Assembly: GCA_963666835.2 (NCBI GenBank)
Contig: CAXXGO010000003.1
Location: 1 to 64,000 of the forward strand
Origin: Phycisphaerae bacterium
Lineage (GTDB): Bacteria; Planctomycetota; Phycisphaerae; UBA1845
Direction of reading: 5' to 3'
DNA length: 64,000 nucleotides
Shown: positions 1 through 9,505 of the stretch, piece by piece
How the letters are laid out: each line of letters opens with the position of its first letter
How positions within the stretch are numbered: the stretch's first letter is position 1
Position numbers and translations under genes: made by a program
Notes under the pieces: generated by a model
Seen by the model: the letters and a program-made list of their open reading frames with translations, nothing else
The model's database searches: none
Told to the model about the DNA's origin: nothing

Positions 1-82
1 TCTCGTTCCTCGACGCTGCCCTACGACCCATCGCATGACACGCGTTTTTGCGGCAGGTCTCGTTCCTCGACCGTGCCCTACT
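1..82 (-). repeat. Two GTAG-type REP-like palindromes (GTAGGGCACGGTCGAGGAACGAGACCTGCC family)
   Basis: Copies at 1-24 (truncated by the window edge) and about 52-81. Near-identical copies occur at 50646-50675 and, inverted, at 50705-50733. Confidence 0.7.
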
Positions 83-107
83 AGGTCGCATACCGCTCTC
101 GTTGCTC

Positions 108-934
108 CTAGCCGGCACTCAGCGGGCCTTCGAAGAGTGTCTGGAACTTGGCGTAGTCGGCCAGGTCGACGTCGAGGTCGCCGTCCAGGTCGCCGGGTTT
201 GGCTAATTGGATTACCCAGTACATGATCAGTTCATCGATACCGTATCCGCGATATCGGCGCCGCCCAGTCCGACTACTCCCACGCCGGATAGCCCGTTGG
301 CGTCGCTGTCGTGGAGGATCAGTTCGAAGCAGCCCATGTTCGCCCCGTTGTCGTACAAGCAGATTCCGGATTCGAGAATGGTGTAATCAGGGTCCGGGGT
401 CCAGGTGATTTTGTCCGTGCCGGCCGCGCCGGTGCCCACGTCGAACCGCCAAGACTGAAAGGCGGTGGAGTTTTCCGAGATTGCGCCCGCGGGCACGAGA
501 TCTGAGCCGTCGCTTGTCCAGTAGTTCACTTGAAGGAGATTCGGATCCGGCAGTCCCGGGCCGTTATCCGCTCCCGCGATCCACATATCCACCCCGGAGA
601 TAAGGTTGAGCCCGGCCGTTTCGGTACCGGTGCCGAAAGTGTGGTTGTCCGGAAGATCGTCCAGGTACCAGGCCGTCGTCTCATCCTGAACCAGCGCCGT
701 GGCGTCGAAGGTGTCGTTGGTGGCGTCGCGGGCCGGAGCCGGCGGGAAGCTATCGCTTCGCGCGCTTAGCAGGTTGGCCGGTGGCGCCTTCGAGGCTGTT
801 GCTGACAACACGGTCTTGGCCTGGATGGCGGGTCGGGTTCTCAGATCCTGAGGATCGTGGCCGAAGACCGGAAGCAACAAACCGCAGATTCCCACGAGCG
901 CTAAACCGGTTATCAGGTGACTCTTCTTTGACAT
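108..934 (-). CDS. Secreted protein with C-terminal dockerin-like (EF-hand-like) motif; apparent 1-nt deletion near 247
   Basis: Signal-peptide-like start MSKKSHLITGLALVGICGLLLPVFG. The ORF stops at 227, but the shifted frame continues GYGIDELIMYWVIQLAKPGDLDGDLDVDLADYAKFQTLFEGPLSAG* to a TAG at 108-110, matching the tails of the 55-62 kb proteins. Confidence 0.7.
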
Positions 935-1346
935 GCTATTCCCCTTCCTGAATTCGTTAATACGCAAGACCGGTCGAACTCCGCCGGCCACCTTATTCCG
1001 CTGAGAATCCGCAGTTAGTTCGGTCGTCGCCCGCGACCGGAGGCTGTGGAGACCCCGATACCGACCCCTATGGTAAGGATTATCGGGTCCCGAGTCCAAG
1101 AGAAATCTGCCAAGTTCTGAAGATGGCCGGCAGCCCGTTCCTGCCGCTAAGCCGTTTGAGTGCGGTCGGGCGTGTCTGCGACCGCCGGTTCTCGCCGTGA
1201 GGCCACGCGGTGCCGGAACCGCATGCTCCGGCGCCTACTGCTCCGTGGTTGCTCGCCAGCGGTGTTTTCGTGATACTCTGGTGACCGGCATCGTGCTCTT
1301 TAACGTGTCCGGACACTAATCCTTTCGCAACGGTTGTGAGGGCGAC

Positions 1347-3718
1347 ATGGCGAGTACAACGGGCAGCAACAATGATGGGCCGGCAAGGCGCGGGGTTCTT
1401 TCGCTGATCGGGAATACGCCGCTGGTGCCGATGCTTCATCTCAGTCCCAATCCGGCGGTGGAGATCTTAGCGAAGATCGAGAAAACCAGCCCGGGAGGGT
1501 CGGTCAAGGATCGGATCGGCCTGTGGATGATCGAACAGGGCCAGCGTTCGGGGAGAACTCACCGAAGGTAAGACCATTATCGAAGCCACCAGCGGCAACA
1601 CCGGCATCGGCTTAGCCGTGGTCGCGGCCAGCAAGGGGGTTTCCGATTCTGCTGGTCATGAGCGAAGGCGTTTCGGTGGAGCGGCGGAAGATTCTCGCCG
1701 CCCTCGGCGCGGAGTTTCTGCTCACCCCGGCCGACCGGGGAACGGACGGCGCCATCGAGCGGGCCTATGAGCTGGCGGCCGAGGATCCGGATCGCTTCTT
1801 TATGCCGGACCAGTTCAACAACCCGGCGAACGTGCTGGCCCACTACCACACCACGGCTCCGGAGATCTGGGCGCAGACCGACGGGCGGATAACGCACTTC
1901 GTGGCCACGATGGGTACGACGGGTACGCTGATGGGTTGCTCGCGGCGTTTCCGCGAGCTCAATCCGCGGATTCGCACCATCGGGGTGGAGCCCTATTTGG
2001 GGCACCGTATCCAGGGTCTGAAGAATCTTAAAGAGGCCTACCTTCCCGGCATTTATGATTCGACCGGGCATGACGAGAAGGTCAACATCGAAGACGACGA
2101 CGCGTACGAGATGGCCCGGCGCCTCGCCCGCGAGGAGGGGCTGCTGGTGGGGATGAGTTCGGGAGCGGCGATGCACGCCGCGTGTGAGCTGGCCGGTCAG
2201 ATCGAATCTGGCGTGATCGTAACGATTCTGGCCGACGGCGGCGATCGGTATCTGTCTACGCCGTTGTTCCAGGTCGCCGAACCCGAGGCCGTCAGCGTCA
2301 AGCTGAATTTCTTCAATACGTTGACCCGTCGCTATGAACCGTTCGAGCCGTTGTCGAAGGGTACCGAGGCTACGATGTATTCGTGCGGACCGACGGTGCA
2401 TCGCAGGCCCCACCTGGGCATTCTGCGGCGGATGCTGGCGGACGACCTTATCCGGCGCACGCTCGAGTTCGCTGGTTATACGGTCAAGCATGTGGTGTGC
2501 ATTACGGACGTGGACGACACCACGATTCAGGAGGCCGAGCGCACCGGCGAGCCGCTCGCCGAGCTGTGCGCCAGACATGAAGCGGAGTTCCACGAGGATC
2601 TTAAGGCGCTCGGCGTGAATCCGGCCGACGTTTACGCCCGCTCGTCGGAGTCGGTGGATGAGATGATTGCGCTGACCCGACGGCTGGTTGATACGGGTTA
2701 TGCCTACGAGAAGCTCAACTCGGTTTACTTCAATATCGGCCGGGTGAAGACCTATGGGGAGATTTCCGGCAAAGACCTCGGCAAGATTAAGATCGGGGCA
2801 ACGGTGGATCTGGAACGCTATGAGAAGGACGACCCGCGCGATTTCACGCTCATGCGACGTTCGACTCTGAGTGAACTGCGCAAGGGGCTAAGCTTCAAGA
2901 CTGAGTGGGGCAACGTGCGTCCGAGTTGGCACGTGCAATGCCCGGCGATGGCCCGTATTCACCTGGGTGACCGGTTCGACATCCACACCGGTTCGGTCGA
3001 CCTGATCTTCCCGCATCACGAAAACGAGCTGGCTCAGTGCCGCGCCCTTGGCGGTGAGCCCCAGGCTCGTTACTGGCTCCATTCCGAGTTGGTGCTGACC
3101 GCCGGGAAGAAAATGACCGATACGGAGGGGGTTCGCGAGACTCTCCCGGATCTGATTCAGCGAGGCTACTCGGCGCGGGAGATTCGTTTCTTCCTGCTTC
3201 GGACGCACTATCGCCAGCCGGTCCACCTTACTGATGAACGGCTGGAGGCCGCGCGGACCTCGCTGCGAAGATTGGACGAGTTCGTGGCCAATCTGGCGAA
3301 CTTCCCGGTCACGGAGACCCGGGCGGTCGAGGTCGAGGTGGAAGGTTGGATCAGTGAGATGAAGGAGGAGTTTCACCGGGCGCTGTTCAATGATATGAAC
3401 ATCTCTGCGGCGCTCGCGGCGTTGTTCAGTCTGGTCAGGAAGGTCAATTACCTGATGCACCAGGGGCGACTCCACCGCGAAGACGTCGGCGTGGTGATGG
3501 ACGGTCTGCGCTCGGTGGATGAGGTGCTGGGAATCCTGCCGCCGTCGGAAGAACCTGAAGATCTGCCCGCAGAGATCGAAGATCTTATGCGTCAGCGTGA
3601 CAAGGCCAGGGAGGCGAAGGACTTTGCCCAAGCCGACGAGATCCGTGACACCCTGGCCGGCCTCGGTTACATAGTGGAAGACGTCCTCGGCGGCACGCGC
3701 GTGAAGCGGAAGATCTAA
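1347..3718 (+). CDS. cysM-cysS: Cysteine synthase (CysM-type, PLP) fused to cysteine--tRNA ligase-like domain; two +1 frameshifts in G runs (about 1538-1553 and 1635-1639)
   Basis: PGGSVKDR (PLP Lys), IIEATSGNTGIG (intermediate frame 1555-1638), MGTTGT and DGGDRYLST, followed in frame by YSCGPTV, WHVQC, DLIFPHHENE and the anticodon-domain motif AREAKDFAQADEIRD. About 789 aa if both extra bases are removed. Confidence 0.9.
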
Positions 3719-3736
3719 CCGGGGAACTCAGCGGTC

Positions 3737-3799
3737 GGGTGGCCCATCTCCTCAGAGGTGGGGGATTCCGGGTGGCATGGGCTAACTTGTTAGCCCGTG
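3737..3799 (+). repeat. Two GGGTGG-led REP-like palindromes downstream of cysM-cysS
   Basis: GGGTGGCCCATCTCCTCAGAGGTGGGG and GGGTGGCATGGGCTAACTTGTTAGCCCGTG. Homologous units recur at 5782-6070. Confidence 0.7.
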
Positions 3800-3899
3800 T
3801 GGCATCATGACAACGAAATGTCACCCTGATCGGAGCGAGCGCCCGCGTGTTGGACATCCGTAGCGTACGACGCGTAGACTTCCGCCTGAGCCCATGCAA

Positions 3900-4772
3900 C
3901 TACGACGACGTCAGAACAACGCAGGTACCGGTGTACTCCTGCGTGTCCATGAAGTCGTCGCTGAGCTGCACGGTTACCGTAACAGTGATGACCGGATCAA
4001 CTCCGATGATTGTCACGATCGTTCGGGCGGCGCCGGGCTGATCGAAGGACGCGCCGGTCGAGTACCATCGATACGTGGGCGTTCCGACCGGATCGACTCC
4101 GGTCACACTGGCATTCAGGACCGCGGTCTCTCCGAAACTTGCTTGGGTGGGGCACCCAGAGATCTCCACTGCGATTCCCGGGTCCGTGCAGGTTCCGCTT
4201 GATTCATCGCAGGTCTGGTCGGAGTCGCAGGGCTCGTCGCCGTCGATGCAGACTTCTTCAGAGCAGGTCTCCGCCCCGTTGCAGAAAACGCCGTCGTCGC
4301 AATCCGCATCCGTCAGGCACTCGGGTTCTTCTTCCAACTCGCACTCACCGGTCTCCGGATTGCACAAGTAGCCGTCGGAACACGCAATCGGCGTATTCGT
4401 GCAGCCGCCGGTGGCGTTGGAGACATCGGTAGTGCACGGGTTACCGTCGTCGCACGGGTCGATCTCGGTGGAGGTTACGCATTGACCGAGCTGCGGATGG
4501 CAGGCGCTGCCTTCGGGACATTGCATCGGGGTATACTCGCATTCCGCTTCGCCATCGTCGCCTACCACGCAGGTGTCGACCGTGCAGAGGTTGCTGTCAT
4601 CGCAGACGACGTCCGCGCAAACACCCTGGGTGTCGTCGGCGGGATCGGCGTTTGCATCCAAGCTCCCGCCATCGCCGATCGACGAAGTCGTGCAGCCCCC
4701 TGCGATTAGGGTTGCCGCAACGAACAACGCCCAGCTGGCGATGACTTCCGATAGCCTGATCTTATGCCTCAT
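3900..4772 (-). CDS. Cysteine-rich lipoprotein (CDDGNPCTxD-type repeats, C-terminal beta-rich domain)
   Basis: Lipobox-like IAGGC, repeats CDDSNLCTVDTC / CDDGNPCTTD / CDDGVFCNGAETC, and a beta-strand-rich C-terminus. Confidence 0.8.
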   Translation of the reverse strand: MRHKIRLSEVIASWALFVAATLIAGGCTTSSIGDGGSLDANADPADDTQGVCADVVCDDSNLCTVDTCVVGDDGEAECEYTPMQCPEGSACHPQLGQCVTSTEIDPCDDGNPCTTDVSNATGGCTNTPIACSDGYLCNPETGECELEEEPECLTDADCDDGVFCNGAETCSEEVCIDGDEPCDSDQTCDESSGTCTDPGIAVEISGCPTQASFGETAVLNASVTGVDPVGTPTYRWYSTGASFDQPGAARTIVTIIGVDPVITVTVTVQLSDDFMDTQEYTGTCVVLTSS

Positions 4773-4852
4773 ACCGGATACCCCTTTCTGCGGGTATTGT
4801 AGGTTCTGAGGACTGTCCGGTCGATAATTGCGCCGAAGGCACTACCTGGCGG

Positions 4853-5725
4853 CTAATCGGGCATCTGCACGTACGCCATTAGCTTGTAGGCCAGCCGAGC
4901 CGCGAGGAATTCAGTGACGACCTGGCCGGGGATGGGCGCGACCTCGACAATATCGGCCGCCACGATGGTCTTTTCGGCCGCCACGAGCCGAAGCAGGCTG
5001 ACTACCTGATACCAATCCAGCCCACCCGGCTCCGGGGTGCCCGTGCCCGGAGCGTACGCCGGGTCGAATCCGTCTATGTCGATGGTTACGTAGACCTTCT
5101 CGCCGAGAGCATCGAGGACGCGGTCGACCCACCCGTCTTCGAAGAGGCAGTCACGGGCGGTGACCGGGTTGATCCCGCTTCGTTTCATGAACCGGTGCTC
5201 TTCCGCGGCAACGCAGCGAATCCCGACCGGGACGATCGTAGCGCCCAGCTCAACGACCCGCCGCATGACGCAAGCGTGAGAAAGCGGGGAGCCGTGGTAG
5301 CGGTCGCGCAGATCCGCGTGGGCGTCGATCTGCAGCACGGACAGCTTCTTGTGTTTGGTCATGACCGCGCGGACCAGCGGGGCGGTGACGCTGTGGTCGC
5401 CGCCTAAGCTGAAAAGGAACTTCTCGTCGCGCACCACTCGGCGAGAGCTCTTGAAGATCTCCTCGTGCATTGCCTCGGGGCCGCTTACGATCGGTTCGAT
5501 CTCGTCCAGAGTGGCTATGCCGCAGTCATAGCACTCCCCCGCCAGCTCTTCGTCGAACTCCTCGACGTGGTGAGAGGCGTGGATGATTGCTCGGGGGCCG
5601 TTACGGGCTCCGGTCTGATAGCTGGTCGTGGCGTCATAGGGGATCGGCAATACTGCGAAAGCCGCCTTGTCATAGACGGAATACCGCGGCTCCAGAGCCA
5701 GGAAGCCATTGGGGGTTGTACTCAT
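4853..5725 (-). CDS. speB: Agmatinase
   Basis: Ureohydrolase motifs GGDHS, DAHAD and DIDGFDPAYAPGTGTPEPGG; clustered with an arginine decarboxylase. Confidence 0.93.
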   Translation of the reverse strand: MSTTPNGFLALEPRYSVYDKAAFAVLPIPYDATTSYQTGARNGPRAIIHASHHVEEFDEELAGECYDCGIATLDEIEPIVSGPEAMHEEIFKSSRRVVRDEKFLFSLGGDHSVTAPLVRAVMTKHKKLSVLQIDAHADLRDRYHGSPLSHACVMRRVVELGATIVPVGIRCVAAEEHRFMKRSGINPVTARDCLFEDGWVDRVLDALGEKVYVTIDIDGFDPAYAPGTGTPEPGGLDWYQVVSLLRLVAAEKTIVAADIVEVAPIPGQVVTEFLAARLAYKLMAYVQMPD

Positions 5726-5781
5726 GATTCACCTAGCAATAATCGGCGACTAATCCAAGAGGCGGTGACCCGCCCAAGACG

Positions 5782-6070
5782 GGGTGGCCCGCCTCTTTAG
5801 AGGTGGGGGACTCGGACCAGTTCCGTGTTTATGTCCCCCACGGCCAAAGCCATGGGCCACCCGTCCACCCGACCCAGCTTGGAATACACGGGCAAACAAG
5901 TTTGCCCATGCCACCCGTGTCCGCCCGCGAGGCTGGGAAGCCCGCTTCTTCAGAGGTGGGGGGCTCGGACCAGTTCCGTGTTTGTTTCCCCCACGGCTAA
6001 AGCCATGGGCCACCCGTCCGAACCAGTTCCGGGTTTATTTCCCCCTACGGCTGAAGCCATAGGCCACCCG
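5782..6070. repeat. Cluster of REP-like palindromes (BIME-like mosaic)
   Basis: Three copies of CCCC(C/A)ACGGCxAAAGCCATGGGCCACCC, two of GCCCGC..AGAGGTGGGGG, one of CACGGGCAAACAAGTTTGCCCATGCCACCC, and a repeated ACCAGTTCCG linker. Confidence 0.8.
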
Positions 6071-6102
6071 GCTCACCTCTCAGTTGCGCTACCCCGAAAA
6101 CG

Positions 6103-7242
6103 CTAGCGTTCCCCGAAATACTCCGGATGCTGCTGACGCAGCCGGGGGTTTTTTGCTGCAGTCTCCCGTAAGACCTCCGTAAGCTCTTCCAACCGCCGGA
6201 AGAGCCGACGCTGCCGGCGCGGCTTCGCCCGCGCCATGGCGTATTGGGTAATCAGTGGGAAACTGATCGACGCACACGAATAAACGACGATGTTGTTGGC
6301 ATGGGCGTCCTTGACCTTCCCCCAGCTTCGAGCCTCGGAGGGCGTGGCCCCGGACAATCCGCCCCAGTGGGGAGAATCGATCGTAAGCTGAAGGAAGTAG
6401 TCATGCCCACCCTTGCTGGTATCGAGCAGAATCTGGTGTAGCGTCGGTTGGGTCTGCATGTAGAAGTTCTTCGGCGATCCGCCGCCGATGACAAACGCCC
6501 CGTTAGTATCCGCATCACGGACAATCGCCGCGGTTTCGATCACGTCCAGCAGGGGGTTAAGTGGGATCGGCCGGTCGAACATGTGCGGGATTATCAGATT
6601 CATGCCGATCGACGAATCGCCCGGGGACGACGTGTAGACGGGAACATCGTTCTCGGCTGCGATAGCCAACACGGATTTCTCCGGATGCGGAGCCCTCTCT
6701 CGGATCGTCTGGCCGAGCTGGTAGTGCAGGGATGCCGAGGAGAACGGTCTAGTTACATCAATCTGGTCAACCGCGTCGAGTATCACCGAGTCGGTTGCCA
6801 TCAAGGTGTCGTCGTCCGCGATATAAGTGTCGTAAATGCGTGCAACACCGGCGTCTGCCAGCACGTTATCGTCGACGTTAGAGTCGCCCTGGACCATCGG
6901 GAAGTTGAACGGTCGGTGCAGGTCATGATAGAGGTTCGCCCCGGTGGAGATGATGAAGTCGACGAATCCGTGTTCGATAAGGGAGATGCAGATCCCGCTC
7001 ATCCCGATCGGGGTCATGGCTCCTGCTAGGGTCAACCCGACGGTGGCGTCGGCCTCAAGCATGCGGGTGAGAAGCTGAGCCCCTTCCGCGAGCTTGCGGG
7101 CGTTGAACCCGCTGCGGGCGAACACATTGTCGAGAAGATCGGCGGTACTCTCGTTTCCGATTAGTTTGAGCGGCTCGATTAACTCTCCGCTCAGCCAATC
7201 GCTACGGCTGAGGCAGTCATTGTGGTGTCGGTCAGAGTTCAC
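6103..7242 (-). CDS. Deoxyhypusine synthase-like protein (probable homospermidine synthase)
   Basis: DHS-family motifs STGANLYHD, GGGSPKNF and GGLSGATPSEARSWGKV (catalytic Lys); lies between pdaD and speB. Confidence 0.88.
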   Translation of the reverse strand: MNSDRHHNDCLSRSDWLSGELIEPLKLIGNESTADLLDNVFARSGFNARKLAEGAQLLTRMLEADATVGLTLAGAMTPIGMSGICISLIEHGFVDFIISTGANLYHDLHRPFNFPMVQGDSNVDDNVLADAGVARIYDTYIADDDTLMATDSVILDAVDQIDVTRPFSSASLHYQLGQTIRERAPHPEKSVLAIAAENDVPVYTSSPGDSSIGMNLIIPHMFDRPIPLNPLLDVIETAAIVRDADTNGAFVIGGGSPKNFYMQTQPTLHQILLDTSKGGHDYFLQLTIDSPHWGGLSGATPSEARSWGKVKDAHANNIVVYSCASISFPLITQYAMARAKPRRQRRLFRRLEELTEVLRETAAKNPRLRQQHPEYFGER

Positions 7243-7351
7243 AGATCCATTCCCTGGCGTTGAGATTGCCTCTGACGGGCATTGCGATATCCTGCGGTAC
7301 GTTCGCGAGCCGCGGAAGACGATAGGCGCAGGTTCCGCTGCGCCCGTGCGA

Positions 7352-7906
7352 TCAGGGCAGTAGCACCGCGGCGGCGAGGGCGGTCGTCCAGAGTCCGTTC
7401 TTGTCTCCCTCGGCGGTCTGAACCACCGCGCGCGTGCGAACGATTATGCCCTTGGCCTGGTAGATCTCCTTCCGTTCGTTGTACGCCTTGTCCGGGTCGA
7501 GGTCGATTCCCTGGGTCCGGGCGAGCATCGCGGCGGCCATGTCCTCAACATAATCCGCGCAAGCCCGGTGCGTCATGCCGAACCCGTGATGTTCGGAGAT
7601 GTACCCGTATTGGGATTCGTTGGCGGGCACAGCCAGTCCGATCCCGGCACCGGTTAGTCGGTTAGGCTCGTTGGTGCGAGATTCCGCCATCACGCAGAAT
7701 ACTATTTCTCCGGGAGAAAGCTGGGCGAGTCCTTTAGCCCGGGAGACGATCTTGCAATGGGGGGGGTAAATGCTGCTCACCCGTACCAAGTTGAACGCGG
7801 CGATGCCGGCGTCCCGCAAAGCCTCCTCAAACGACTGCAGATTCTCTCGATGTTTGCCCATCCCCTTCGTGAAGAACATCTTTGTGGGAACAAAGTGACC
7901 GTTCAA
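7352..7906 (-). CDS. pdaD: Pyruvoyl-dependent arginine decarboxylase
   Basis: SFEEALRDAGIAAFNLVRVSSI self-cleavage motif, GYISEHH, and C-terminal WTTALAAAVL. Confidence 0.92.
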   Translation of the reverse strand: MNGHFVPTKMFFTKGMGKHRENLQSFEEALRDAGIAAFNLVRVSSIYPPHCKIVSRAKGLAQLSPGEIVFCVMAESRTNEPNRLTGAGIGLAVPANESQYGYISEHHGFGMTHRACADYVEDMAAAMLARTQGIDLDPDKAYNERKEIYQAKGIIVRTRAVVQTAEGDKNGLWTTALAAAVLLP

Positions 7907-8018
7907 TGGCGAAGCTCCGAGTTAGGGGGTAATCGCAGTCCACCTCGGACGGCGCGCTGCGATTATAACGAGCCAGCTGCCGGCGACAATTGGTACTTGT
8001 TGGGTATTTGCGTCGGTT

Positions 8019-8648
8019 TCAGATAGTATCAGAGCCCGGCCCGTGGTCTAACAGGAGTTCGATCTCCTTGCGGATTGCCAAAAAGGCCCGTGCTCGATGG
8101 CTGATACGGTTCTTTTCTTGCGGATCCATCTCCGCCGCAGTCATGTTGCAGTCGGGGACGAAGAAATGCGGGTCGTAACCGAACCCGTTGGCGCCGCGCC
8201 CGTTGTTGATGATCAGGCCCTCCCAGACGCCGTGGGCAACCGCGAGCATTTCCTGCGGTGTTGCCAAGACGGCAACGCATCGGAACCGTGCCGTGCGCGC
8301 GTCGTGAGCGACTCCCGCCAGCTCTTCGATGAGCTTGGCGTTGTTCGCGGCTGAATCACATTCCGGGCCGGCGTAACGGGCAGAGTGGATACCCGGCCTT
8401 CCGCCGAGGGGATCAACTTCGAGCCCGGAGTCGTCGGCCAGGGTCCACAATCCCGTAAGGCCCGCGTAATGCGCGGCTTTCAGTCGAGCGTTGTCTTCAA
8501 AGCTGTCGGCATTCTCCACTGCTTCCGGCAGAGAGCCCATGTTGGAGAGGCCCTCAAGGTTGATGGCAAGGCCCGCCAGGATCGCTCGGACCTCTCGCAG
8601 CTTGCCGGGGTTCGTCGTGGCGACCAGGATGGTCTCCCGGGCTACCAT
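8019..8648 (-). CDS. rdgB: Non-canonical purine NTP pyrophosphatase (RdgB/HAM1)
   Basis: ATTNPGKLRE, ADDSGL, GFGYDP and KNRISHR motifs. Confidence 0.95.
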   Translation of the reverse strand: MVARETILVATTNPGKLREVRAILAGLAINLEGLSNMGSLPEAVENADSFEDNARLKAAHYAGLTGLWTLADDSGLEVDPLGGRPGIHSARYAGPECDSAANNAKLIEELAGVAHDARTARFRCVAVLATPQEMLAVAHGVWEGLIINNGRGANGFGYDPHFFVPDCNMTAAEMDPQEKNRISHRARAFLAIRKEIELLLDHGPGSDTI

Positions 8649-9505
8649 GGGGCCGAAGCCTCCTTGTGGGGAATGTGGACGAGTCGCGAGGGCATGCGCA
8701 CCTTGTTGCCTTTCTCGGTCCGTGCCCGATAAACAGCCCCGTTGAGCCGGTTGTACATCAGGAGTTCGTCGCTCTGTTGCAGTTTTATGACCTCGGCGCT
8801 GTAAGTCGGCAATCCTCGTGATTGCGAGATCACTGCTTGGGGGCCGAAGACCCCTACCGTTACCAGGCTGGAGGACTCCGTGTGGTAGTAATAGGCTTCG
8901 TAGCCCTTCTCGCGGAGCAGCTTGCAGAACTCCGCCGCGGCCTGCTTGTATTGCCAGAACTCGTCCGTGGGCTCGAAAACGCCCACCTGTAGGGAGTACA
9001 TCCCCTCGACTCTGGAAAGGTCCCAGTTAGGGTTGCCCACATGGGGTGTGGGCACGCGCACGACGCGCGCGCCCATGAAGAAGTACTGCCCCGGGCCGGT
9101 TCCCAGCTCCTTGATGAACTTCAAATCGTTCGTCAATCGTTGCGGGGTTGAGCGCACCCCGGTCTTCCGGTCGCTCTTGCGATAGTAAACACCGTAGTAC
9201 AACCGTGCCACTCCGTCAGCGTCGTCGGTGGTGCTAACCTCGTCCGGCCGTATCCCGTCGGTCCGTCTCAAAGTGTCGGCGATCTGTTCCAGTCGCTCGA
9301 CATGATGGGGCCCTTGCAACTCCAGGCAGAGAATCGTCCAGGGGCTGCCCTTGGGGCTGAATAGGGAGCGAGACTGCCCCTGCTGGAAGTCCGGCGAGCT
9401 GCTAGGTCCGGGCGCACACCCGGGTATCGTCACCATGCCTGCCGCGAACAGTGCAACCAGCGGCGCGCTCAGTCTTGCCGGTATGGAAGGCACGGTCCTG
9501 CTCAT
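8642..9505 (-). CDS. Hypothetical lipoprotein, possibly with SPOR-like domains
   Basis: Lipobox-like [12 protein letters not shown]...LREKGYEAY...VTVGVF pattern; overlaps rph and rdgB, suggesting translational coupling. Confidence 0.65.

What the first reader, a model, noticed from the sequence alone, without database searches (positions are those of the whole stretch)
1347..3718. Cysteine synthase fused to a divergent cysteinyl-tRNA synthetase: possible make-and-load cysteine machine
Seen: the CysM-type PLP domain (SVKDR, SGNTG, MGTTGT, DRYLST) runs in one open frame, with no stop at the junction (about 2260-2310), into a full-length CysRS-like domain including the anticodon-binding tail. 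Known: these are normally separate enzymes. Inference: the fusion may channel newly made cysteine to tRNA-Cys, limiting the free cysteine pool, or couple sulfur incorporation to tRNA status, loosely analogous in logic to the SepRS/SepCysS route. I recall similar two-domain proteins in anaerobes but cannot verify this here, and I know of no characterisation.
Basis: partly seen in the sequence, partly recalled or inferred. Interest (0 to 1): 0.78.

Follow-up and report, generated by a model that had tools for sequence, protein, structure and literature searches.

The report
Cysteine synthase fused to disabled CysRS
This gene joins a cysteine-making enzyme to a spare copy of the cysteine-tRNA-loading enzyme whose ATP motifs are altered but whose tRNA- and cysteine-gripping residues are kept, so the copy likely works as a built-in tRNA/cysteine sensor that tunes cysteine synthesis (likely from phosphoserine) rather than loading tRNA, in a widespread bacterial family that databases label as an ordinary tRNA ligase.

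Summary
The fusion is real. Two frameshifts in the window (1550, 1635) are assembly errors: 4 of 4 runs lack those bases, giving one 789-aa gene. 79 of 80 GTDB loci are fused. 'Make-and-load' is unlikely here. The host has a canonical cysS. The fused domain reads HLGI and KMTDT, and 0 of 303 bacterial sequences keep both a full HIGH motif and KMSKS Lys269. Zinc ligands and the five anticodon-domain residues are kept, under strong selection. Where the gene is split, cysM directly precedes its partner in 13 of 13 loci. In 40 genomes related to a Thermodesulfobacteriales MAG it is the only CysK/M in 32, and 37 lack cysE and metX. With Lys at the CysM-Arg210 position, O-phosphoserine is the likely substrate. 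A Woese-/Nanoarchaeota fusion clade keeps all motifs (19 of 19). Best reading: a HisZ/Gcn2-like tRNA-Cys/cysteine sensor regulating the synthase (about 0.5, untested). Ten literature searches found no description. This scan noted the family at least 8 times on other DNA.

The parts
1347..3718 (+). Fused cysM-cysS-like gene, 789 aa once two assembly insertions are discounted
   Evidence: closest homologue P0002 (787 aa) 84% identical
1347..2272 (+). CysM-type PLP cysteine synthase domain (likely O-phosphoserine sulfhydrylase)
   Evidence: PF00291; the intact homologue passes the TIGR01136 cut-off and scores cysM above cysK; best solved match E. coli CysM
1506..1508 (+). PLP Schiff-base lysine of SVKDR
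   Evidence: sequence; invariant wherever the column is filled
1550..1550 (+). Extra base, assembly error (homopolymer)
   Evidence: absent in contigs of 4 of 4 runs
1588..1605 (+). TSGNTG substrate-carboxylate loop
1635..1635 (+). Extra base, assembly error (homopolymer)
   Evidence: absent in contigs of 4 of 4 runs
2021..2023 (+). Lys of QGLKN, aligned to E. coli CysM Arg210 (position linked to O-phosphoserine preference)
   Evidence: alignment; Lys in 48 of 48 representatives; role from passages of PMC3805590
2273..2299 (+). Short variable interdomain linker; the position where one sub-lineage is split into two genes
   Evidence: pLDDT under 50 at the equivalent residues 310-315 of P0002; split junctions
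2300..3715 (+). Full-length CysRS-like module (Rossmann fold, CP1, DALR helical bundle, anticodon domain)
   Evidence: model of P0002 matches 8qhp (target TM 0.92) and 1u0b (0.84)
2384..2386 (+). Zinc ligand Cys (E. coli C28); the others are C209 at 2939-2941, H234 at 3014-3016, E238 at 3026-3028
   Evidence: alignment to 1li5; conservation
2411..2422 (+). Altered HIGH motif: HLGI (fourth residue His/Asn replaced)
   Evidence: L/V/I in 119 of 119 of this clade
3110..3124 (+). Altered KMSKS motif: KMTDT (Lys269 lost)
   Evidence: Lys269 in 3 of 303 bacterial fusions
3596..3682 (+). Anticodon-domain residues R423, R427, D436, R439, D451 (E. coli numbering), all kept
   Evidence: 46-47 of 48 representatives each

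Best explanation
The protein is a CysM-type cysteine synthase, likely using O-phosphoserine and sulfide, joined to a CysRS copy that has altered ATP motifs and likely no longer charges tRNA but is predicted to bind tRNA-Cys and cysteine and so would act as an allosteric switch on the synthase. Steps. (1) Shown: intact PLP site; CysRS body with HIGH and KMSKS altered and zinc, Trp205 and anticodon residues kept; a separate canonical cysS. (2) Inferred: the synthase takes O-phosphoserine, because most genomes that rely on it have neither CysE nor MetX, four checked have serA beside a class V aminotransferase, and the Arg210 position is always Lys. (3) Inferred: the module binds tRNA-Cys by the GCA anticodon and tRNA body; this is the one feature kept by every lineage, including those that have lost the zinc ligands. 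(4) Least certain: uncharged tRNA-Cys would switch synthesis on, while cysteine in the zinc-thiolate pocket, free or on the tRNA, would switch it off. This would supply the feedback that CysE normally provides (recalled) and that a phosphoserine route lacks.
For: Separate cysS: host, 5 of 5 carriers among 41 relatives, 45 of 50 carriers (two copies frameshifted), 38 of 40 carriers in the thermophile group. ATP site: 0 of 303 bacterial fusions have both HxG[HN] and Lys269, against 19 of 19 archaeal fusions and 93 of 99 unfused CysRS-like proteins at each position. The replaced positions vary freely (L/V/I/E/Q/T; R/Y/D/E), and the Trp of DFALWK is lost in all 303. Kept in 48 representatives below 70% identity: C28 45, C209 44, H234 48, E238 41, W205 47, R423 47, R427 46, D436 47, R439 46, D451 47. 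Pooled dN/dS over 14 pairs is 0.08 for the catalytic body and 0.12 for the C-terminal part, against 0.10 for CysM. Four Desulfovibrio-type members have lost C28, C209 and E238 yet keep the anticodon residues. Split forms keep cysM immediately upstream in 13 of 13 loci. Sole CysK/M in 32 of 40 genomes; cysE in 3 of 40; metX in 3 of 51, the same three, in one block with a separate cysK. No PF01053 transsulfuration enzyme in 4 of 4 apparently closed genomes. Precedent: HisZ lacks adenylation and regulates HisG (passage, PMC9437257); Gcn2 responds to deacylated tRNA (passage, PMC7373986).
Against: No biochemistry. E. coli CysRS K266A/K269A kept protein synthesis in PUREfrex while C28/C209 mutants lost it (passages, PMC5660078), so loss of Lys269 alone does not prove inactivity, and this protein keeps C28, C209, H37, G39, K266, H224 and H235. 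16 of 303 bacterial members keep HxG[HN] with Arg at 269 and could be active. 5 of 50 carrier MAGs showed no second cysS (completeness not reported; close relatives of two of them have it). The model does not fix how the two domains sit (pTM 0.63, disordered linker). For the substrate: 40 of 55 carriers do have a CysE/EpsC-like match, the host has PF01053 enzymes and a stand-alone CysK with no CysE found at 92% completeness, Arg210 is also in E. coli CysM, an O-acetylserine enzyme, and C. jejuni CysM does not use phosphoserine (passage, PMC9855970). The direction of regulation has no direct evidence.
Confidence: 0.5

Rival explanations
1. Make-and-load: the CysRS domain is still active, perhaps slow, and charges tRNA-Cys with cysteine handed over from the CysM domain.
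For: All four zinc ligands, W205, H224, H235, H37 and K266 are kept in this protein. It passes the TIGR00435 cysS cut-off, 364.6 against 340 bits. K266/269A E. coli CysRS still supports translation. Strong purifying selection on the catalytic body. Fully intact fusions exist in archaea.
Against: Canonical cysS is retained alongside. Several ATP- and adenylate-site positions changed together with no new consensus. Members lacking the zinc ligands keep the same architecture. Flexible linker and no fixed channel in the model.
Confidence: 0.15
2. tRNA-linked chemistry: the module holds an aminoacyl-tRNA-Cys while the PLP domain (or the zinc site) converts or removes its aminoacyl group, for example phosphoseryl/seryl to cysteinyl, or repair of selenocysteinyl- or modified cysteinyl-tRNA; a SepCysS-like job built from unrelated folds.
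For: tRNA contacts and the acceptor-side CP1 motifs are highly conserved. ATP is not needed for such steps (inference). Phosphoserine is the likely substrate. The host has a tRNA-Sec.
Against: No SepRS over cut-off in the host or 5 thermophile genomes, so no known source of Sep-tRNA-Cys. The TSGN loop that binds a free alpha-carboxylate (role recalled) is nearly invariant. Canonical CysRS needs no editing (passage).
Confidence: 0.15
3. Cysteine-only feedback subunit (strict HisZ logic): the zinc-thiolate pocket senses free cysteine and inhibits the synthase; tRNA plays no part.
For: Zinc ligands and W205 kept in 41-48 of 48 representatives; HisZ precedent; CysE, the usual feedback point, is absent in many carriers.
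Against: The surface anticodon residues are at least as conserved as the zinc ligands, and four members have lost the zinc site while keeping them.
Confidence: 0.13
4. RNA-binding repressor: the module binds a tRNA-Cys-like hairpin in an mRNA leader (as ThrRS does; recalled) and controls expression rather than enzyme activity.
For: Anticodon reader kept.
Against: By eye no shared leader or GCA-loop hairpin in 14 upstream regions; no Rfam match in window 1-8000; no conserved neighbours across lineages.
Confidence: 0.04
5. Decaying relic with no function in the CysRS half.
For: Graded loss of motifs across the family; patchy presence in the host's class, 2 of 301 genomes.
Against: dN/dS 0.08-0.12; kept in 40 of 41 genomes of 1.3-2.3 Mb; kept as its own adjacent gene after fission in 13 of 13 loci.
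Confidence: 0.03

Closest known systems
Canonical class I cysteinyl-tRNA synthetase (E. coli CysS, PDB 1LI5/1U0B; closest solved relative 8QHP)
   Same: Whole fold and domain order, zinc ligands, W205, anticodon residues.
   Different: HIGH fourth residue and KMSKS Lys269 replaced, DFALWK Trp and GGG loop altered, fused or tied to CysM, and present beside a canonical cysS from which it does not descend.
HisZ (HisRS paralogue, regulatory subunit of short HisG); passage in PMC9437257
   Same: Synthetase paralogue attached to the biosynthesis of its own amino acid; no adenylation reported for HisZ and none predicted here.
   Different: Class I not class II; usually fused; keeps the anticodon domain (HisZ lacks it; recalled), which points to tRNA binding; regulation untested here.
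Gcn2 (kinase activated by deacylated tRNA; passage in PMC7373986; its HisRS-like sensor domain is recalled)
   Same: Proposed logic: a synthetase-derived module reads tRNA charging and controls a fused enzyme.
   Different: Bacterial, specific for one tRNA, output is a metabolic enzyme rather than a kinase; no homology.
CysM / O-phosphoserine sulfhydrylases (E. coli CysM 2V03/2BHS; M. tuberculosis CysM 3DKI; A. pernix OPSS)
   Same: PLP fold II, catalytic Lys, TSGN loop, basic residue at the Arg210 position (35, 71).
   Different: Below the cysM equivalog cut-offs; Lys not Arg; no conserved sulfur-carrier gene nearby (a MoeB/ThiF gene in only 2 of 160 loci); carries a CysRS module.
CysRS* of Desulfobacterales (PMC5389517) and MshC (PMC9437257 Table 1): the two CysRS paralogues listed in that review
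   Same: Second cysS-like gene beside a canonical one; CysRS* occurs in overlapping taxa.
   Different: CysRS* lacks the anticodon domain and is tied to selC*/selB*; MshC is an ATP-dependent small-molecule ligase. This family keeps the anticodon domain, alters the ATP site and is tied to CysM; MshC score 201 against a cut-off of 485 (6).
SepRS/SepCysS pathway (PMC5424206)
   Same: Links phosphoserine, sulfur insertion and tRNA-Cys in concept.
   Different: No homology; neither enzyme found over cut-off in the genomes tested.

Membership tests
Canonical CysRS | Full CysRS fold with anticodon domain | tested here: met
   Pfam and NCBIfam; fold search on the P0002 model
Canonical CysRS | HIGH motif H-x-G-[HN] | tested here: not met
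   HLGI; L/V/I in 119 of 119 clade members
Canonical CysRS | KMSKS motif with second lysine | tested here: not met
   KMTDT; Lys269 in 3 of 303 (71). Caveat: K269A is tolerated in one in-vitro translation assay
Canonical CysRS | Zinc ligands C28, C209, H234, E238 (numbers from alignment; H234/E238 role recalled) | tested here: met
   36, 42, 86
Canonical CysRS | Anticodon readers R427, D436, R439 (passages, PMC4536326) plus R423, D451 (recalled) | tested here: met
   36, 47, 86
Canonical CysRS | ATP-dependent charging of tRNA-Cys | not testable with these tools
   needs an assay; indirect evidence is against (second cysS)
CysK/CysM cysteine synthase | PLP lysine, TSGN loop, GTxGT phosphate loop; score over the TIGR01136 cut-off | tested here: met
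   71; homologue P0002 363.7 against 344.15 bits
CysM equivalog (TIGR01138) | Score over 394.2 bits | tested here: not met
   P0002 362 bits; best of the K/M equivalogs but below cut-off
O-phosphoserine sulfhydrylase | Basic residue at the Arg210 position | tested here: met
   Lys in 48 of 48 (86); alignment; role
O-phosphoserine sulfhydrylase | Genomes lack an O-acylserine source but can make phosphoserine | tested here: inconclusive
   Met in the thermophile group (56, 60, 66, 96, 98) and no CysE/MetX in the host, but 40 of 55 broader carriers have CysE-like genes and the host's serA match is below cut-off
O-phosphoserine sulfhydrylase | Kinetic preference for O-phosphoserine | not testable with these tools
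   needs an assay
HisZ-like synthetase-derived regulator (works-like) | Paralogue beside a canonical synthetase, tied to the cognate biosynthetic enzyme | tested here: met
   7, 41, 48, 50, 80
HisZ-like synthetase-derived regulator (works-like) | Physical contact with, and allosteric control of, the enzyme | not testable with these tools
HisZ family (membership) | HisRS-derived class II fold | tested here: not met
   class I CysRS fold
CysRS* (selC* system) | Anticodon domain absent; selB*/selC* adjacent | tested here: not met
   anticodon domain present; no such neighbours among shared neighbour families
MshC | Score over TIGR03447 cut-off; ATP-dependent ligase | tested here: not met
   201 against 485.1 bits
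SepRS/SepCysS route | SepRS and SepCysS in the genome | tested here: not met
   30, 67, 105
CysRS as cysteine persulfide synthase (CPERS, PMC5660078) | KIIK and KMSK lysines | tested here: not met
   TTIQ and KMTD in this protein

The most novel reading that the evidence does not exclude
The fusion does chemistry on tRNA: the retired CysRS clamps an aminoacyl-tRNA-Cys and the PLP domain converts or repairs its aminoacyl group, a third route to Cys-tRNA-Cys unrelated to SepCysS. It would descend from an archaeal-type bifunctional make-and-load enzyme that survives intact in Woese-/Nanoarchaeota (single origin not rejected: p-AU 0.42 for each domain).
Probability: 0.12. Interest if true: 0.92.

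Novelty: new variant of a known kind. Interest (0 to 1): 0.66.

Why it matters
If the best reading holds, it is a class I counterpart of HisZ and a bacterial metabolic enzyme gated directly by one tRNA species, absent from a 2022 review's table of CysRS paralogues (PMC9437257). It would name the cysteine-synthesis route in a group of thermophilic sulfur-cycling bacteria that mostly lack CysE, and explain how a phosphoserine route is controlled in a sulfide-rich cell. The family gives a graded natural series (intact archaeal fusion, near-intact KMSRS forms, ATP-site-altered forms, zinc-less forms, split pairs) in which loss of catalysis and gain of regulation can be tested side by side, with cultured carriers available (Thermodesulfatator atlanticus, Desulfonema magnum, Desulfovibrio ferrophilus). 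It also flags a routine mis-annotation: these proteins pass the cysS model cut-off and are named 'cysteine--tRNA ligase'.

Tried and rejected
Pseudogene reading of the two frameshifts: rejected. Fusion as sole CysRS in Thermodesulfobacteriales-type MAGs G059 and G077: not supported, since 38 of the other 38 carriers among their relatives have canonical cysS. Conserved operon partner: neighbours shared are lineage-specific housekeeping genes; MoeB/ThiF in 2 of 160 loci only. Leader RNA: none by eye in 14 upstream regions, no Rfam match; promoter/terminator scan at chance level. Plasmid search: 1 of 1426 records covered 80% of the query, as two separate pieces at 37% identity on a 2.6 Mb record; not followed. 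Expression: no RNA holder listed. First domain alignment A1 used one locus on the wrong strand and was replaced by A2. In one search the labels K266-S270 are shifted by one position; one search has them right; L059 was dropped (78 of 79) and is included. Whether the archaeal intact fusion is the only CysRS of its genomes could not be tested (no genome handle). Literature: searches returned nothing; others returned nothing on this fusion in their listings. Westrop 2006 and Newberry 2002 (89, 92) were not held, so Trichomonas Lys214 and the roles of H40, W205, H234/E238, H224/H235, H297 and N351 are recalled, not read. No supplements were read; supplements of the two Mukai papers or subscription papers could mention the fusion.
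Full report
Observation. The window holds a 686-aa open frame at 1658-3718 with PALP (residues 1-193), tRNA-synt_1e (235-533), DALR_2 and CysS_C, with no stop at the junction. The N-terminal part from 1347 crosses three frames. Contigs of all four runs laid lack one base at 1550 and one at 1635 and show no other difference in the gene (at most two samples, and one may be the assembly's source). Without those bases the gene is 789 codons with one terminal stop. The nearest named relatives are Phycisphaerae proteins at 73-84% identity, so the host is probably a Phycisphaerae bacterium (inference).

Family. All 119 best non-self hits carry both domains. The fusion is rare in the host's class (5 of 41 close relatives; 2 of 301 class-wide) but present in 40 of 41 genomes related to a Thermodesulfobacteriales MAG (these relatives are unnamed). 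In both domain trees the bacterial fusions form one clade (SH-aLRT 99), apart from the host's own cysS, and the window's clade groups with Myxococcota and Acidobacteriota records; horizontal acquisition by the host lineage is likely (inference). One sub-lineage is split into two genes, with cysM ending within about 15 bases of, or overlapping, the start of the CysRS-like gene in 13 of 13 loci; of the other 67 loci of that scan 65 are fused and 2 are cut off by the contig end. Neighbouring genes are not conserved across lineages.

It is a second CysRS. The host has a canonical cysS beside ispF, with HIGH and KISKS (C1:1623840-1625336), one tRNA-Cys(GCA) with U73, and a stand-alone CysK. A separate cysS was found in 5 of 5 carriers among relatives (19), 45 of 50 GTDB carriers tested (48; 50 of the 80 loci were given; two copies are frameshifted; 5 MAGs of unreported completeness had none) and 38 of 40 carriers in the thermophile group (50).

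What the CysRS module has lost and kept. Against E. coli CysRS this protein reads HLGI for HIGH, KMTDT for KMSKS, DFTLMR for the DFxLWK motif, TGS for GGG and TTIQ for KIIK. It keeps C28, C209, H234, E238, W205, H224, H235, H37, K266 and R423, R427, D436, R439, D451. Among 303 bacterial fusion sequences (overlapping sets, not independent) 22 have HxG[HN], 3 have Lys269, none has both, and 16 have HxG[HN] with Arg269. Unfused CysRS-like representatives have H/N at position 40 and Lys at 269 in 93 of 99 each (this set includes some split or partial family members). In 48 representatives below 70% identity, Lys269 is kept in 2 and H/N40 in 8, while zinc ligands are kept in 41-48 and anticodon residues in 46-47. 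R427, D436 and R439 are named as anticodon-loop positions in PMC4536326 (passages). Four Desulfovibrio-type sequences have also lost C28, C209 and E238 but keep the anticodon residues. Pooled dN/dS over 14 close pairs is 0.10 (CysM), 0.08 (catalytic body) and 0.12 (C-terminal part) (one pair is saturated in two regions). The AlphaFold model of the 84%-identical homologue is confident within domains (pLDDT 92) but not between them (pTM 0.63; linker under 50) and matches CysRS and CysM structures. Against my reading: E. coli K266A/K269A CysRS still supported cell-free translation while C28/C209 mutants did not (passages, PMC5660078), so inactivity is inferred from the sum of changes, not shown.

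The synthase and its substrate. The PLP lysine, TSGN loop and GTxGT loop are essentially invariant. The domain scores best on cysM but below that equivalog's cut-off, and above the CysK/M subfamily cut-off. The residue aligned to E. coli CysM Arg210 is Lys in 48 of 48 representatives; PMC3805590 states that this position helps select O-phosphoserine in some organisms (passage). In the 40 thermophile-group carriers the fusion is the only CysK/M match at E 1e-30 in 32 (one of them is cut across two contigs), cysE is found in 3 and metX in the same 3 (3 of 51 genomes tested), all in one block with a separate cysK. Four genomes whose hits all lie on contig 1 have serA beside a class V aminotransferase, no PF01053 enzyme and no SepRS or SepCysS over cut-off. 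The host has no CysE, MetX, SepRS or SepCysS match over cut-off (92% complete), but its serA match is also below cut-off (66) and it has two PF01053 enzymes (104). More broadly, 40 of 55 carriers have a CysE/EpsC-like match, in many cases next to a separate cysK. O-phosphoserine is therefore likely but unproven; C. jejuni CysM is a counter-example of a CysM that does not use it (passage, PMC9855970).

An intact sister architecture. A search with P0124 found 19 clusters, several named Nanoarchaeota or Woesearchaeota, with the same domain order and HxGN, K[MV]SKS, DFxLWK and all zinc ligands in 19 of 19. They form their own clade (one row apart in the CysRS tree). A single origin with the bacterial family is neither shown nor rejected (p-AU 0.42 for each domain, on reduced row sets of 51 and 42).

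Mechanism. Shown: the architecture, the motif pattern, selection, the second cysS and the linkage after fission. Inferred: no charging; tRNA-Cys binding; O-phosphoserine use; allosteric control, with uncharged tRNA-Cys activating and cysteine or Cys-tRNA inhibiting (overall 0.5). Rivals: active channelling CysRS 0.15; chemistry on aminoacyl-tRNA 0.15; cysteine-only sensor 0.13; mRNA regulator 0.04; relic 0.03.

Comparison with what is known. It works like HisZ, a HisRS paralogue without adenylation activity that regulates HisG (passage, PMC9437257), and in logic like Gcn2 (passage, PMC7373986), but belongs to neither family. It is not CysRS*, which lacks the anticodon domain (passages, PMC5389517), nor MshC, nor part of the SepRS/SepCysS route (passages of PMC5424206 contain no CysM; PMC2922099 passages do not describe it). 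The review's Table 1 lists only CysRS* and MshC as CysRS paralogues. Ten full-text searches (five aimed at the fusion) found no description; the library lacks most subscription papers, I read passages only, and no supplements.

Earlier notes of this scan. Eight follow-up reports on other genomes reached a similar 'retired CysRS' reading, and the same stretch was read once before. My reading was recorded before I saw them; they are not independent support. One gave the leads 'only cysteine synthase in many' and 'strong selection', which I tested. A word search for intact archaeal fusions and phosphoserine returned nothing.

Verdict. Real, conserved and apparently undescribed; a new variant of the synthetase-paralogue-as-regulator kind; interest 0.66.

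Noticed in passing
P0124, P0295-P0311, P0368: Woese-/Nanoarchaeota clade of CysM-CysRS fusions with all catalytic motifs intact: candidate true bifunctional cysteine synthase/tRNA ligase in reduced-genome archaea.
   Followed up: partly
L153-L165: Sub-lineage in which the fusion is split into adjacent or overlapping cysM and CysRS-like genes; in L153 and L154 a MoeB/ThiF-like gene follows directly, hinting at a sulfur-carrier donor there.
   Followed up: partly
L104, L117, P0121, P0319-P0326: Bacterial members with HxGN and KMSRS-type motifs, the least altered forms; they may retain charging activity. The genomes of L104 and L117 also have canonical cysS.
   Followed up: partly
window 4853-7906 (-): Pyruvoyl arginine decarboxylase, deoxyhypusine-synthase-family gene and arginase/agmatinase-family gene in a row: a polyamine (probably homospermidine) cluster.
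   Followed up: no
window 3737-3800 and 5777-6070: REP-like intergenic palindromic repeats (about 90-nt unit, 153-nt spacing); a 65-nt probe gives 14 matches across the genome.
   Followed up: partly
window 227-1099 (-), 3900-4772 (-), 8642-9505 (-): Open frames for probably secreted proteins without a Pfam match over cut-off; 3900-4772 is cysteine-rich with a weak Dictyostelium-repeat match.
   Followed up: no
L002:8172-9053 (G000:C6:1964189-1965052): Stand-alone CysK in a host where no CysE or MetX was found; its substrate source is unexplained (genome 92% complete).
   Followed up: partly
window 1485-1490: The window's protein has TSPGGS where the family majority is NPGGS before the PLP lysine; reads confirm the bases.
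   Followed up: no
G102, G116, G127: A cysK-cysE-metX block present in only 3 of 40 thermophile-group genomes, probably acquired as a unit.
   Followed up: no
P0169; P0145, P0159; P0152: Other fusions among representatives: serine-acetyltransferase-like domain before a QGLRN-type CysM (P0169); tandem CysK domains fused to serine acetyltransferase (P0145, P0159); a partial plus a whole CysRS in one chain (P0152).
   Followed up: no
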